Shown here piece after piece: positions 34,401 to 40,041 of a DNA stretch of 64,000 nucleotides; the first letter of the stretch is position 1; each line of letters starts with the position of its first letter. The stretch comes from Podarcis tiliguerta (Eukaryota). The position numbers were made by a program. The stretch lies in NCBI GenBank assembly GCA_965153285.1, contig OZ229110.1. The stretch is one strand, 5' to 3'.

Positions 34401-37400
34401 TGGACCACATTGCTGTTTAAAACACCTGACGCAAAATAATGTATTTACTGACTTCTGTTGAGTCAGGAGCATCCAACTTTTGAGCTGCAAAGAACTCTGT
34501 CAGAAGAAGGGCAGCTGAAGGCTTGTGCAAATGTTTCAATGATGTAGAAGACGACTTGTGCTCCTAGTACTGCGTATGATTCACAATTCAATTATTGCTA
34601 CTGAATATCAGTCATTGGCAAAATGTTCTTAGGAGTTTGTAGTAAGTGAAGGCTATCTGCTAAAAAATTTTTTAAAAACCCAAATACAATGATTTCTTCT
34701 GGAAGTACAATAAGCACCTACTTGTCAGTGCCTGTGACATCACCGATAATGAGATAATAAATTATTCCTCCCCCAAACCTCAACTGAGGTGCACAGTTAT
34801 GAAACTGGTTTTAAATATACAGAATGGTTTAGCTCCTTTAAAAAATTACCATGCACACCTGCCTGGGGGGGGGACACACAACATCTGTCCGCATAAGTGA
34901 CCTGACTTCTCAGCAATCTTAGCTGTCAGGTGGCCAAGGTTGGCGCAAACACACAAGGATGTGCCTGAATACAAATAGTTCAGCAATAGTGCTGGCAGCT
35001 CTGGGTGGGTAACTCTTCCTACCCTATAACTACAAGTGTTGCAAGATCTGGGCTGAAGTCACCAACTAGCACTAAGACCTTCAAATTGCTCTGTAGGAAA
35101 GCAATGTTTTGTACCAGCCCTAATGCACAGCATGGAGAGAGAACATTATTAATCGATGCAAACATCATTTTTAGCTCAGAGGAGATGCTTCTGCATATGA
35201 ACCAATACAGTGTTCATTATGAGATAATAAACTCAACTTTATTGTGTCTCTTCATCCTCTGGGAAAACGCAGCTAATATGATGTATATGCCATCATGTGC
35301 CAGCCATGGCCTTCTGCCATTTACATTGGCCAAATGTGTTGTCGGCATGAGAATAAATGAGCACAAATCGGGCATGACAAATGGTAACAACTCAGGGAGA
35401 GCATTCGGGACAAAACTTGAAAGTAGCCATACAAAATAAATAAATGCATTAGAAACAAATATCAAACAGAAAGACTCTGTGCAAAGCCACAGAATAGAAA
35501 TTCAAAGGCAGATTGGACGTGATCAGACAAGGGCTGAATAGGCAGCGGTCAGCAAACTTTTTCAGCAGCAGGCCAGTCCACTGTCCCTCAGACCATGTGG
35601 GGGGCCAGACTATATTTTTTTTTGGGGGGGGGGAATGAACGAATTCCTATGCCCCGCAAATAACCCAGAGATGCATTTTAAATAAAAGCACACATTCTAC
35701 TCATGTAAAAACACCAGGCAGGCCCCACAAATAACCCAGAGATGCATTTTAAATAAAAGGACACATTCTACTCATGTAAAAACATGCTGATTCCCGAACC
35801 TTCCACGGGCCAGATTTAGAAGGTTATTTGGATGGATCTGGCCCCTGGGCCTCAGTTTGCCTACCCATGGAATAGAGGCTAAGAGCTTGTCCACTCTTCT
35901 GCTTGTCCTGTGCCTAGAAAGCAAAGTCTGAAGCCATTTTCCCTTTGCCCCACTCCTTTCCCAGGGAAAACCCACTCTTTAGCTCTAAATTGGAACAAAT
36001 GGCAAAGAGTGATCTTCCCCGAGGGAAAGCAGTGTGACAAGCAGAAGTGTGGATAAGCCCTTATAGCATAAAGTTATGCATGTTTTACTTCAAAGAAAGA
36101 CAGTGTTCCCTGGGGTAAAGTCCCCAGGTAAAGTGTCCATAGGACTAGGGCTTCGGAGTGGCCAGCTTACTACAAGAAGTGATGCTATGCTGGCTGGGAC
36201 TGAAGAGAATTCTAGTCTATTTTTTGCCGGATCGTCTTTTGCCAGATCTGTACACTATTCTCTGCCAGTTCACTAGCAGCTGGTAGTGAGTCACCCTCCC
36301 CTCCCCTTTTCCACTGGACCTTGTTAGGATTTGATTCCTCCTAATAGTGGAGCACACCTCCCTTTGCCATTCCTGGGTCTTCTGGCCTCACTTTGCAGTA
36401 ATATCCCCTTCTCCTTTTCTGTGCCTTATGTATGCGCCCATTAAAGATGCTCTTCACGAACTGGTGAGATAGATGGAGGTGGGATAAACCCTGTGGTCCT
36501 TCAGATGTTATCGGGCCCCATCTCCTACCAGCCCCAGCCAGCGTGGCCACTGGTCAAGATTGCAATCCAGCAAAATTTGGAGCACCACCAGCTCCCAACT
36601 CCTGAAGTTGTTGGCATTTGTCTGGAGGAATGCACCCTTAGGATGAAGTCAAACTGCCGAAAGGTTGCAGCGCCTGCTGTGGCTGTAGAGACCAATACAG
36701 GAGAGACATGTTTTGTTGCAGCTGGGGCAGAAGAAGGCTGCTCCAAGCAGTGGCGTAGCGTGGGTTGTCAGCACCCGGGGCAAGGCAAGTAATTTGCGCC
36801 CCCCCCCCGCTGCACTGTCCCTCCCCCAGATAGTCCCTCGCTCTCCCTCCACACCGCACTGCACGCCTGGCACCCTCCCCTCCACAGTGGGCGGCTTGGA
36901 TCGGATTCGCACAGCCAGCACTGCAGTGAGAGAGAGTGAGTGAGCCAGGTAGGGGCAGAGAGCTGCGAGTGTGAGCGCGCAGTGGCATGGCGTGGGTTTT
37001 CTGAGCTTGCACAGAGTGCTTTTCCTCCCTATGGGCAGAGCCAGCTTGCTCCTAAATACCTGAGCTCTATAGTTAGAGACTCACCATTTCCCCAGTTGGC
37101 TTGGCCCCCAATTTCTCTTACTATAGAATTTGGGGCTGGTGGTGGAGGAAATCATTATTCTTCCCCCTTGCTACCCCCCCCCCAAAGCATAAGAGAGGGA
37201 CTCCCAAGAAGGTGAAGCAGGATTTCACTCCAGGGTATCTCGGAAGCCCAGACCCCCGATCTCTCCCATCGCCCCTGGAGGGGTCATGGAGGCACTGAGC
37301 CCGGGAGGCGGGCAGCCAGCCAGGGCGCACGCACCTACCCAACCTCGTTGCGCCCAGGCGCGCTGCTCTCTCCAACTTTCCTCCCTGCCGGGCCAGTGGC

Positions 37401-40041
37401 TCCGCCTCCACCTCTTCCTTTGCCTCTTTGAGCAAGCGATTAGCAGGCTCGGATTGGATCCTGCGGCAGGCAGGCGGCGCCTCCTCCCGGCTTTGCTGCT
37501 CCTCCACCTCCTCCTCCTCCACCTCCTCCTCCCTGCTGCTGCAGCTGCTGCGCGGCTCTTTTCCCTCCCGCTTCCTCGAGGGGGGCCGGCCAAACGGAGA
37601 CGACGATCCCTCCCCCCAACCAAGCCTCGATTGCTTGTCCCTTCTCTCTGGACTTGCGCCCCCCCAAATGTTGCGCCCGGTGCGGCTCGCACCCCTGGCA
37701 CCCCCCACGCTACGCCACTGGCTCCAAGGGCAACATGGCATTTCTTCTCTCTGCACTCATCCCAGCGGTCATTCCTCCTCTGGTCAGTACTGGGGATGCA
37801 AGACCTGTCTATCTCCAGGAGCTGAGCTGCAATCGTCTGCAAGGGATTCCCACACTCAGAGCTGTAGCTAAGGGGGCAGGGCAGGGTTAGCCAGGTATTT
37901 TTGCCCTGGTTGAAGCCTCCTCCAGAGGGGCACCATTGAGGCTCCCAGCCTGTGTGTGCACAAATGCACATGGTTGTTGTTTTTTGCCAAACTGAGTCTT
38001 TGACCCAGGTGACATATAGCCAAGTTTCACCCCTGCCCACATGGTGGAGTTGAAGTTGCCAGCCCTCATGTCACATTTGCAAGCACCTTTGTAGTGCAGA
38101 GTTGGGACTCAGCTATATTAGTCAAAAAACAGCATTTTGAATGCGTTATAAACATGCAACACCAGACGCGCTGTACATAGAGCACAAAACTTTTCTATGT
38201 GATTTTACATAGCATTTCCCCCCTTTTGTTATAACAATTTTATTTATGACTTATTTATAGCGTCGTCCCCTCATGTATAGATCCACCCTTGGTCTGCCAA
38301 CCGGCCTGGTGCCTGAAGCCAGCTCCTCACAGGGTACAACCTTGGGATCCTTCTATCTTCCATTCTGTGGACATGACAAAGCCAGTGTAGACATCACTGA
38401 ACATGCTGGGAATGTTGACTCCACCCGCAAAAGCATATACCACAACACATTGGTTAGCCTTTCGGGTGCCACCAGACCATTCTTCCCCCATCAAGTGCTG
38501 TCTACTTTAATTTTTGTAATGCCTAGGTAAGAGTGACATAGATTACCCTGTATCAATTTAACCCATCATGCAGATGAGCCCTCGCTTGGCACCTGAGATG
38601 CTGAAGATCTGCTCGCACAAAGCATGTTGCTCCACCATGCAATTACCATGATTGTGAACTCCGCCTCGCTGTGATTGGACAGAGGTGGCAATCATGAAGA
38701 GCTAGGAGCATCACCTCGAGACTCGAGATGGAGCGCCGAGTTGCCACTTAGTTTTAATGCAGCTTGACTGGGTGCTTTTTTGGCACTCAGCCATTCCTCT
38801 TTAGCTCTGCCTCGATGCTAAGCAATGAGCAATTTGAAATTTGCATACATTTAAATGAATTAACCTATTCAACTGTGCAATGTCTCTTGTTTGCCCCTGG
38901 GACACGGAGGGAGAGAGAGCGAGAGCGCTGGAGGCAGTTTAGCAGGAGACTTGCTCTCCAGCACATGTTTCCGCTTCCCGCAATCAGCATAGCTCGGTTC
39001 CATAATGCCTAAGAGGGCTTAGCCACACTTACTTTTCCTCCGCTCTTTCCAGGCATGGTCAGCACTTTAAGGCTCTGTGTCCGAGCACCCTTGGCGCTTT
39101 CCCCATGAAAACCCACTCTTTAAAGCTCCATCGGAGCAAACGGCAATCCGCAGAAAATCCAAATTGCCGTTTGTTCCAGTTGAGCTTTAAAGAGTAGGTT
39201 TTCATAGGGAAAATTTAGGGGTGGAGAGACCCACACTTGGACATGGAACTTTTAAGCTGTACCTGTGCATGGAAACATATATAAAAAGAAAATATCAACA
39301 CTTTAGTCTCTACAGAAAACACGTATCAATGCAGAGAGTGTACTAATCTGTGTAACATTAATTTGGAAAAAAACAAGTTTTTTATTTGTAAGAAAAGGGA
39401 AAACATTTTTAAGGTAAGTGTGGGTAAGCCCTGGCTCTTTCTTTATGCAGGAATAACACCTGAAGGGCAATGTTCCCATCATCAAGAACATAAGAGCTCC
39501 ACTGCATTAGGGCAATGGCTCACCTAATACTGGGGGGGGACCCCAACCCAAATCCCACGTGTGTAGGAGGAGTGACATTATTCATTGGTGAGGGGATACA
39601 CTCTGTACATGATCAGAGGTACTCTTTTAAAGCCAATGTTTCACTTAGTCCATTGTTTCACTTAGTGCTGAAGCAGGTTATGGAAAGTCAGATCTGGAGC
39701 TAAGCTCTAGTGAGCCTTGACCAAGCTGAGCCTGGAGCAAAGGTCACTGCTTTGAATTGCTACTAAAGAACAAGGTCAAGGGATGCCAAGAGGCCATGAG
39801 AAGTCAGGTTCTGGAGCCAGTGAGAAAATTTGCCCCAAACCCAGAGATGGTCTGAGTGAGAATCATTCCAACCCAATTGCCAGCCCCACACTGCTTATCT
39901 CTGCTTGCCAAAAAGCACTAAAAGGGTAAAGATCTAAAGGGATTAGTTCTGTCATGTTAAACTGCTGGCTGTAATGCAGGTTTCAGCATTTAGAACTAAA
40001 CCCCTGAGGATGGAGCCAGAAATGGAAGGGAGGGAAGGTGG

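What the first reader, a model, noticed from the sequence alone, without database searches (positions are those of the whole stretch)
36748..37720. The apparent CpG island is cargo inside a hAT transposon (Pack-TE-like capture of promoter or first-exon DNA)
Seen: the only markedly CpG-rich kilobase in the window lies exactly between perfect 17-bp TIRs and an 8-bp TSD. It has no transposase. It contains patches that look like vertebrate 5'UTR/first-exon DNA: (CCT)n and (GCT)n runs near 37490-37550, a minus-strand donor TAG|GTGCGT at 37335/37334 and a plus-strand donor CAG|GTAGGG at about 36947, separated by a more AT-rich spacer. Perfect ends and retained CpGs imply a recent or unmethylated insertion. 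Established: Pack-MULE-type elements capture GC-rich 5' gene fragments in plants; this is much less documented in vertebrates. Inference: a lizard hAT family that captures and moves CpG-island fragments. This is the strongest candidate for a new system here.
Basis: partly seen in the sequence, partly recalled or inferred. Interest (0 to 1): 0.75.

Follow-up and report, generated by a model that had tools for sequence, protein, structure and literature searches.

The report
Young non-autonomous hAT transposon, CpG-rich
A 973-base transposon of the hAT type, without a transposase gene, sits upstream of a lizard muscarinic receptor gene; it brought its CpG-rich DNA with it, and nothing yet shows that this DNA was copied from a host gene promoter.

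Summary
Window 36748-37720 is bounded by a perfect 17-bp inverted repeat and a perfect 8-bp target-site duplication, and it starts with the hAT terminal motif. It encodes nothing recognisable and is the most CpG-dense 973 bp of the window: 50 CpG, against 33 for the best stretch elsewhere. It is a young non-autonomous hAT element in a Podarcis-like lacertid genome, about 14.5 kb upstream of the CHRM4 coding exon.

The interpretation, capture of a host promoter or first exon, could not be tested, because no vertebrate DNA collection was available. No positive evidence for it appeared:
- Neither proposed exon contains an ATG.
- The two named splice donors match the consensus at 7 of 9 positions, as do four of the other five donor-like sites in the element (the fifth matches 8 of 9).
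- Protein, Pfam and Rfam searches found nothing meaningful.

The element is a mosaic of two CpG-rich arms around a 230-bp CpG-free centre. The transposon-specific motifs lie in the arms: a third copy of the left terminus at 36980-37001 and four copies of one 8-mer. The likeliest reading is a composite of two hAT ends, with the CpG-rich DNA belonging to the element itself.

The parts
36740..36747 (.). Left copy of the 8-bp target-site duplication (GCTCCAAG)
   Evidence: Read; identical to 37721-37728; found by the scan
36748..36764 (+). Left terminal inverted repeat, 17 bp, starting CAGTG (YARNG motif)
   Evidence: pair I1, 100% complementary to 37704-37720; YARNG criterion from PMC3014272 section 8
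36748..36979 (+). Left arm ('segment A'), 232 bp and CpG-rich. Holds one TTGCGCCC motif followed by a C10 run (36794-36808), and the plus-strand donor-like site at about 36947
   Evidence: 36748-36999: 15 CpG, o/e 0.56, GC 0.655
36980..37001 (+). Internal third copy of the LEFT terminus, in direct orientation. It matches the left end at 19 of 22 positions, including the left-specific bases 18-22, and has no TSD of its own
   Evidence: family D4; (0 of 100 shuffles give any match at up to 3 mismatches)
37000..37229 (.). Central spacer: GC 0.50 and no CpG. Contains a diverged copy of the TTGC..CCCCCCC motif at 37168-37182
   Evidence: (P of 0 CpG is 9e-5 to 4e-4 at the arms' o/e and 0.02 at the bulk o/e; 102 of 2132 windows of similar GC are CpG-free); family D5
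37230..37703 (.). Right arm: CpG-rich (o/e 0.66, GC 0.68) and C-rich on the + strand. Holds three TTGCGCCC motifs (37348, 37654, 37671), a CAGTGGC 7-mer at 37394 and the minus-strand donor-like site at 37335
37499..37551 (.). Microsatellites (CTC)n, with a 15-bp period, and (CTG)n
37704..37720 (-). Right terminal inverted repeat, 17 bp
   Evidence: pair I1
37721..37728 (.). Right copy of the 8-bp target-site duplication (GCTCCAAG)
   Evidence: Read

Best explanation
This is one copy of a non-autonomous hAT-superfamily DNA transposon in a Podarcis-like lacertid lizard.

Mobilisation (inferred). A hAT transposase encoded elsewhere in the genome would recognise the 17-bp termini, and probably short subterminal repeats as well; the 8-mer TTGCGCCC is the candidate. 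It would excise the 973-bp unit and insert it here, duplicating 8 bp of target.

Structure (inferred). The element looks composite: the left 232 bp of one element is joined directly to a second element, 36980-37720, that still carries its own slightly diverged left terminus. This is what results if one element inserts into another and the transposase then uses the outer left end with the inner right end. It would also explain why the inner unit has no TSD.

CpG-rich DNA. The CpG-rich arms are the element's own terminal regions. They are still CpG-rich because the insertion, and probably the family, is young or escapes methylation, not because a host CpG island was copied.

Shown: the TIR, the TSD, the absence of coding capacity, the mosaic composition, the internal terminus copy and the motif repeats.
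Inferred: trans-mobilisation, nested origin, youth, and that other copies with the same interior exist.
For: - hAT hallmarks: a perfect 17-bp TIR and a perfect 8-bp TSD. The terminal CAGTG fits YARNG, and 8-bp TSDs are typical of lizard hAT families (PMC3014272 section 8).
- It is the only such structure in 64 kb.
- No coding capacity: no Pfam family above its cut-off, no hAT domain; 870 word-sharing candidates, none at E<=0.001; 1 weak hit, 30% identity in 5 stretches of an 1807-aa protein, which I take for low complexity.
- Transposon-specific repeats lie in the CpG-rich parts. A third left-terminus copy is at 36980-37001. All 4 of the window's TTGCGCCC copies are in the element, on one strand, two of them within 70 bp of the right end and one 46 bp from the left end (only 1 of 100 shuffles of the window reached 4 anywhere). 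CAGTGGC runs at 4.1 per kb in the element against 0.28 per kb in the window.
- Mosaic CpG content: 15 CpG in 252 bp, 0 in 230 bp and 35 in 491 bp. The centre is incompatible with the arms' o/e.
Against: - No second copy of the element or of any part of it is present in the 64-kb window (the only hits are microsatellite-type), so family status is unproven.
- The TIR matches none of the Anolis hAT families tabulated in PMC3014272. It was also absent from the searchable literature (0 papers; 70 papers hold a 10-12-mer, and the 15 listed are unrelated by title).
- The TSD fits the common hAT target pattern nTnnnnAn (recalled) at position 7 only.
- The two halves share only 22 bp, so the 'nested elements' account needs two different families with the same terminus.
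- The right arm does meet formal CpG-island criteria (o/e 0.66, GC 0.68, 491 bp). It carries UTR-like trinucleotide repeats and has no minus-strand ATG across about 385 nt, all of which a captured 5'UTR would also show.
- The centre shows no TpG/CpA excess (1.04 and 0.93), so its lack of CpG is not clearly the product of decay.
Confidence: 0.65

Rival explanations
1. Pack-hAT. A hAT element acquired a host CpG-island fragment (promoter plus non-coding first exon, perhaps from two genes), for example by gap repair with template switching, and transposed it here.
For: - The interior has no similarity to a transposase.
- The right arm meets CpG-island criteria.
- (CTC)n and (CTG)n runs are present.
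- There is no ATG on the plus strand in 36748-36947 or on the minus strand in 37720-37335, as expected of 5'UTR exons.
- Donor-like sites follow both stretches.
- Such capture of a 5'UTR by a vertebrate hAT is documented (PMC8277862).
Against: - No parental locus could be sought.
- The donors match at 7 of 9 positions, as do 4 of the other 5 donor-like sites in the element; the fifth matches 8 of 9.
- There is no protein-level homology.
- The transposon-specific repeats lie within the supposedly captured CpG-rich DNA.
- The base rate is low: 370 Pack-TIRs in 100 animal genomes, only 4 of them multicopy (PMC8277862).
- No source is present in the window.
Confidence: 0.15
2. Internal-deletion derivative of an autonomous hAT. 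The CpG-rich arms are the transposase gene's own promoter and 5'UTR (with its first intron donor) and its 3'UTR; the coding part has been deleted.
For: - Most non-autonomous hAT families in Anolis are deleted versions of autonomous elements (PMC3014272 section 8).
- A donor-like site follows an ATG-free stretch at the left end.
Against: - No trace of transposase coding sequence remains.
- The internal left-terminus copy and the CpG-free centre are not explained by a simple deletion.
- No autonomous partner is available for comparison.
Confidence: 0.15
3. The element has been co-opted. The minus-strand CpG-rich right arm acts as an alternative promoter and non-coding first exon that splices from 37335 to the CHRM4 acceptor at about 22226. 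This is compatible with any origin of the interior.
For: - The element lies about 14.5 kb upstream of the CHRM4 coding exon.
- That exon begins at a splice acceptor, and the annotated relative extends upstream of the ATG.
- The right arm's donor-like site points towards it on the same strand.
Against: - No transcript data were available.
- The donor matches only 7 of 9 positions.
- A young insertion is unlikely to be the gene's promoter.
Confidence: 0.04
4. Not a transposon: a native CpG island that happens to be flanked by inverted and direct repeats.
For: None beyond the CpG content.
Against: 17 of 17 TIR bases plus 8 of 8 TSD bases abut each other exactly. It is the only such structure in the window, and 0 of 100 shuffles reproduce even the 22-mer match.
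Confidence: 0.01

Closest known systems
'Orphan' non-autonomous hAT families of Anolis carolinensis, such as hAT-N4_AC and hAT-N6 to N8_AC (Novick et al. 2010, PMC3014272)
   Same: Lizard host, 8-bp TSD, a short TIR starting with YARNG, length 0.1-0.8 kb or more, no coding capacity, and an interior unrelated to any transposase.
   Different: The TIR sequence matches none of the tabulated Anolis families. At 973 bp this element is longer than the eight orphan families (135-810 bp). Copy number is unknown. The arms are CpG-rich and there is an internal copy of the left terminus.
Pack-TIR / Pack-hAT elements of animals, such as Pack-hAT-N8_XT carrying 291 bp of the CAPSL 5'UTR in Xenopus tropicalis (Tan et al. 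2021, PMC8277862)
   Same: A non-autonomous hAT with a TSD whose interior could be 5'UTR-like host DNA.
   Different: The defining parental host locus could not be sought here, and there is no exon or protein homology.
Maize Ds elements (Ds1 and Ds2 compared with Ds-del; PMC3260210, start of the abstract seen in the listing)
   Same: A heterogeneous non-autonomous hAT group whose members share only the TIRs and some subterminal repeats with the autonomous element and are moved in trans.
   Different: A plant host and an 11-bp TIR. The link to an autonomous partner is shown there and is unknown here.
Anolis hobo_AC non-autonomous elements with filler DNA (PMC3014272, Discussion passage)
   Same: A lizard hAT lineage that incorporates extraneous DNA between its ends.
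   Different: Those have an 11-bp TIR starting TAGGC, are 1.9-3.4 kb long, and their filler is often other transposable elements. No other repeat was recognised inside this element.

Membership tests
hAT superfamily (non-autonomous member) | 8-bp target-site duplication | tested here: met
   GCTCCAAG on both sides, 8 of 8 and exactly 8 bp
hAT superfamily (non-autonomous member) | Short terminal inverted repeats with the terminal motif YARNG | tested here: met
   A perfect 17-bp TIR starting CAGTG; criterion as stated in PMC3014272 section 8
hAT superfamily (non-autonomous member) | Target consensus nTnnnnAn (recalled) or the lizard patterns of PMC3014272 Table 1 | tested here: inconclusive
   GCTCCAAG has A at position 7 but C at position 2. 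It fits NYYYRRRN (hAT-N3_AC) at 5 of 6 constrained positions. A single site cannot decide.
hAT superfamily (non-autonomous member) | An autonomous partner that encodes a hAT transposase and has the same termini | not testable with these tools
   No vertebrate DNA collection was available. No hAT domain was found in any of the window's 144 ORFs of 85 aa or more.
hAT superfamily (non-autonomous member) | Multiple dispersed copies (a family) | not testable with these tools
   No other copy in the 64-kb window. The scan of bacterial and archaeal genome contigs for the termini found 0, which is uninformative.
Pack-TIR (Pack-hAT) | The interior matches a parental host gene locus that lies outside any TIR context | not testable with these tools
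   No host genome could be searched. No source exists within the window.
Pack-TIR (Pack-hAT) | Captured exon sequence recognisable at protein or RNA-family level | tested here: not met
   no hit; 1 weak hit that looks like low complexity; no Pfam family above its cut-off; no Rfam match. A non-coding exon would escape all of these.
CpG island (Gardiner-Garden and Frommer criteria, recalled: at least 200 bp, GC at least 0.5, o/e at least 0.6) | Composition thresholds | tested here: met
   The right arm 37230-37720 has GC 0.68 and o/e 0.66 over 491 bp. The whole element (o/e 0.53) and the left arm (0.56) fall short.
CpG-island promoter | Unmethylated state and transcription start | not testable with these tools
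   No methylation or transcript data were available.
MITE | Small size (usually under about 800 bp, recalled) and high copy number | tested here: inconclusive
   973 bp is above the usual size. Copy number is unknown.

The most novel reading that the evidence does not exclude
A lacertid hAT family picks up non-methylated CpG-island promoter and 5'-exon fragments and scatters them through the genome. This copy, dropped about 14.5 kb upstream of CHRM4 with its right-arm 'exon' in the gene's orientation, would be a ready-made alternative promoter. That would be a vertebrate counterpart of the GC-rich 5' bias of plant Pack-MULEs.
Probability: 0.1. Interest if true: 0.55.

Novelty: new member of a known kind. 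Interest (0 to 1): 0.25.

Why it matters
As it stands, this is an ordinary young DNA-transposon insertion. Its practical lesson is for annotation: the one 'CpG island' in the CHRM4 upstream region of this lizard is transposon-borne and should not be taken for the gene's native promoter. If the interior proved to be host promoter DNA, it would add a squamate case to the published animal Pack-TIRs. It would then allow a test of whether DNA transposons spread CpG-island promoters in vertebrates. A perfectly preserved hAT insertion also hints at recent hAT activity in lacertids, which is useful for population markers.

Tried and rejected
- Other copies in the window: blastn of the element against the window found only itself and microsatellite-type hits at 46134-46199.
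- The TIR 12-mer at up to 2 mismatches: 8 matches against 2.6 expected. Three belong to the element. The other five (21862, 24587, 26219, 48970, 58056) have no partner end or TSD.
- Longer imperfect TIRs: beyond the 17 bp, the two ends do not align in inverted orientation (score 16 against 14.8 +/- 2.0 for shuffles).
- Protein homology:
  - The minus frame 37121-37720 gave no hit among 870 candidates.
  - The only ATG-started ORF (37286-37720, plus strand) was read against 1.84 billion representatives. It gave one hit at E=5e-6, with 30% identity in 5 stretches of an 1807-aa protein. I take this for proline/alanine/leucine low complexity and neither fetched nor used it.
  - The third protein search was not spent on the remaining frames because the prior chance of a hit was low.
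- Non-coding RNA or SINE cargo: no Rfam match in 34000-40000 at E<=1 and no tRNA-like gene in 35500-39000.
- Contaminating lizard contigs in the bacterial and archaeal genome collection: 0 matches to the termini. This is uninformative.
- REST/RE1 site: a recalled RE1 consensus matched once in the window at 3 mismatches, inside the element's left end at 36768-36787. However, 39 of 100 shuffles do as well, so I rejected it as chance.
- TIR in print: 0 papers for the 12-mer. Of 70 papers holding a 10-12-mer, the 15 listed are unrelated by title.
- Flanks: the 1-kb flanks show only short, roughly 78% matches elsewhere in the window, far from the insertion point. The element is not visibly nested in another repeat.
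The putative exons are non-coding, and ORFs were searched only as contiguous genomic stretches.
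Full report
**1. What is in the sequence**

Window 36748-37720 (973 bp) begins with CAGTGGCGTAGCGTGGG and ends with its exact reverse complement, 17 of 17 (pair I1). Immediately outside both ends lies GCTCCAAG, at 36740-36747 and 37721-37728. 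The duplication is exactly 8 bp.

I scanned the whole window for hAT-like structures. The criteria were a start of YARNG, a TIR of at least 11 bp with at most one mismatch, ends 60-6000 bp apart, and an 8-bp TSD with at most one mismatch. The scan returned one structure, this one. The first 22 bases of the left end match three places in the window at up to 3 mismatches, all inside the element. None of 100 shuffles gave any match. The structure is therefore not a chance event. The window holds no N.

**2. The CpG claim**

- The element has 50 CpG, GC 0.63 and CpG o/e 0.53. The window as a whole has o/e 0.27.
- The richest 973-bp stretch that does not overlap the element has 33 CpG, and it is the CHRM4 coding exon. 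The mean is 13.4 and the sd 5.9.
- In CpG density the element is unique in the window. In o/e it is not: three other 500-bp windows reach 0.65-0.67.
- The element is not uniform. The left arm 36748-36999 has 15 CpG (o/e 0.56). The centre 37000-37229 has none at GC 0.50. The right arm 37230-37720 has 35 (o/e 0.66, GC 0.68).
- A CpG-free centre is very unlikely at the arms' o/e (P of 9e-5 to 4e-4). It is unremarkable for the bulk genome (P of 0.02; 102 of 2132 windows of similar GC are CpG-free).
- The centre shows no TpG/CpA excess, so I cannot say that it lost its CpGs by decay.

**3. Coding and RNA content**

- None of the 11 ORFs of 85 aa or more that overlap the element has a Pfam hit at E<=0.01.
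- Of 16 ORFs of 40 aa or more scanned at E<=1, two gave sub-threshold chance matches (14.8 and 9.1 bits against cut-offs of 25 and 24.6). None gave a hAT domain.
- The minus-strand frame 37121-37720 had no homologue among 870 word-sharing candidates.
- The only ATG-started ORF (37286-37720, plus strand) had one weak match among 1.84 billion representatives. It scored E=5e-6, with 30% identity in five stretches of an 1807-aa protein. I take it for low complexity and did not use it.
- There is no Rfam match in 34000-40000 and no tRNA-like gene.
- Several frames on both strands are open across the right arm, as expected of GC-rich, low-complexity DNA.

**4. The 'first-exon' features**

- The trinucleotide runs are real (37499-37551).
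- Neither proposed exon holds an ATG. The plus strand has none in 36748-36947, and the minus strand has none in 37720-37335. If these are exons, they are non-coding, which puts them beyond any protein search.
- The two named donors match the 9-position donor consensus (recalled) at 7 of 9. The element holds seven sites at least that good, against 4.2 per kb in the window and 3.3 +/- 1.9 in the shuffled element.
- These features are compatible with 5'UTR DNA but do not show it.

**5. Transposon-specific signals inside the CpG-rich parts**

- A third copy of the left terminus lies at 36980-37001 in direct orientation. It matches the left end at 19 of 22 positions, including bases 18-22, which differ between the left and right ends.
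- It has no TSD of its own. It sits exactly where the left arm meets the CpG-free centre.
- All four TTGCGCCC in the 64-kb window lie in the element, on one strand. One is 46 bp from the left end, two are within 70 bp of the right end, and one is at 37348. Only 1 of 100 shuffles of the window reached four anywhere.
- A diverged copy followed by the same C-run lies in the centre (family D5).
- hAT transposases are known to need subterminal repeats besides the TIR. This rests on the starts of the abstracts of PMC4763223 and PMC3260210, seen in the listing; the rest is recalled.
- Beyond the 17 bp the two ends are not inverted repeats of each other.

**6. Reading**

I read the element as a composite. 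The left 232 bp of one non-autonomous hAT is joined to a second element (36980-37720) that keeps its own, slightly diverged, left terminus. The outer left end and the inner right end were then used together in the transposition that produced the present TSD. The CpG-rich arms would be the elements' own cis-acting ends.

This is inference. It needs two families that share a terminus, as hAT-N6, N7 and N8 do in Anolis (PMC3014272 section 8).

**7. Context**

- The window carries a midkine/pleiotrophin-type exon at 9332-9616 on the plus strand (PTN_MK_N, E=8e-29).
- It carries the single coding exon of muscarinic receptor M4 at 20780-22186 on the minus strand (7tm_1). This exon is 468 of 469 residues identical to the Podarcis lilfordi record. 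The next-best hits are other squamates at 92-95% identity.
- The coding exon starts at a splice acceptor near 22226. The element lies either in the 5'UTR intron or upstream of the gene, about 14.5 kb away.
- A CR1-type LINE with an uninterrupted 868-aa endonuclease and reverse-transcriptase ORF lies at 49604-52207.

**8. Comparison with what is known**

- Novick et al. 2010 (PMC3014272; section 8 part 1 and passages read) list 5 autonomous and 32 non-autonomous hAT families in Anolis. All have 8-bp TSDs and YARNG ends. Eight are 'orphans' that share only the TIR with any autonomous element. The hobo-type elements incorporate extraneous DNA. None of the tabulated TIRs matches this one.
- Tan et al. 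2021 (PMC8277862; passages read) found 370 Pack-TIRs in 100 animal genomes, 208 of them hAT and only four multicopy. One is a frog hAT carrying 291 bp of a 5'UTR. Their main text does not mention a lizard, and their supplementary list could not be read.
- The P. lilfordi genome paper (PMC10214862; passages read) gives DNA transposons as 7.2% of the assembly without naming hAT families.

Capture of 5'UTR DNA by vertebrate hAT elements is therefore in print. The present element would at most be a new member of that kind.

**9. What stayed unchecked**

- The deciding evidence was out of reach: copy number, a parental locus, the empty site in relatives, methylation and transcripts.
- No vertebrate DNA collection was available.
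- The one scan of bacterial and archaeal contigs found nothing, as expected.

**10. Verdict**

The capture of a host promoter is neither tested nor favoured by the intrinsic evidence. I score it as an ordinary young transposon insertion with an unusually CpG-rich, composite interior.

Noticed in passing
window 20780-22186 (-), acceptor near 22226: The single coding exon of muscarinic acetylcholine receptor M4. It is 468 of 469 residues identical to the Podarcis lilfordi record; the one difference is residue 4, F here and L there. The exon begins at a splice acceptor, so at least one 5' non-coding exon lies upstream.
   Followed up: partly
window 9332-9616 (+): An exon encoding a PTN/MK heparin-binding N-terminal domain (E=8e-29). 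Midkine next to CHRM4 is the arrangement I recall from the human genome, so this is probably the midkine orthologue.
   Followed up: no
window 49604-52207 (-): An uninterrupted 868-aa ORF with endonuclease and reverse-transcriptase domains. It is a CR1-like LINE copy that looks recently active.
   Followed up: no
window 36768-36787 (+), inside the element's left end: The window's only match, at 3 mismatches, to a recalled REST/RE1 consensus. CHRM4 is a classical REST target (recalled), but 39 of 100 shuffles give a match as good, so I treat it as chance.
   Followed up: yes
window 55084-55473 (-): A 130-aa ORF with a Cys/His-rich stretch. It reminds me of the C-terminal end of L1-type LINE ORF2 proteins. 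It had no Pfam hit.
   Followed up: no
window 46134-46199: A GGA/CCT-type microsatellite. It is the only place outside the element that matches the element's interior, through its trinucleotide run.
   Followed up: yes
window 37286-37825 (+): An ATG-started ORF of 179 codons with G at -3 and at +4. It starts in the right arm and runs out through the right TIR into the flank. It is leucine-, proline- and alanine-rich and has no meaningful homologue, so it is probably a by-product of GC-richness.
   Followed up: partly
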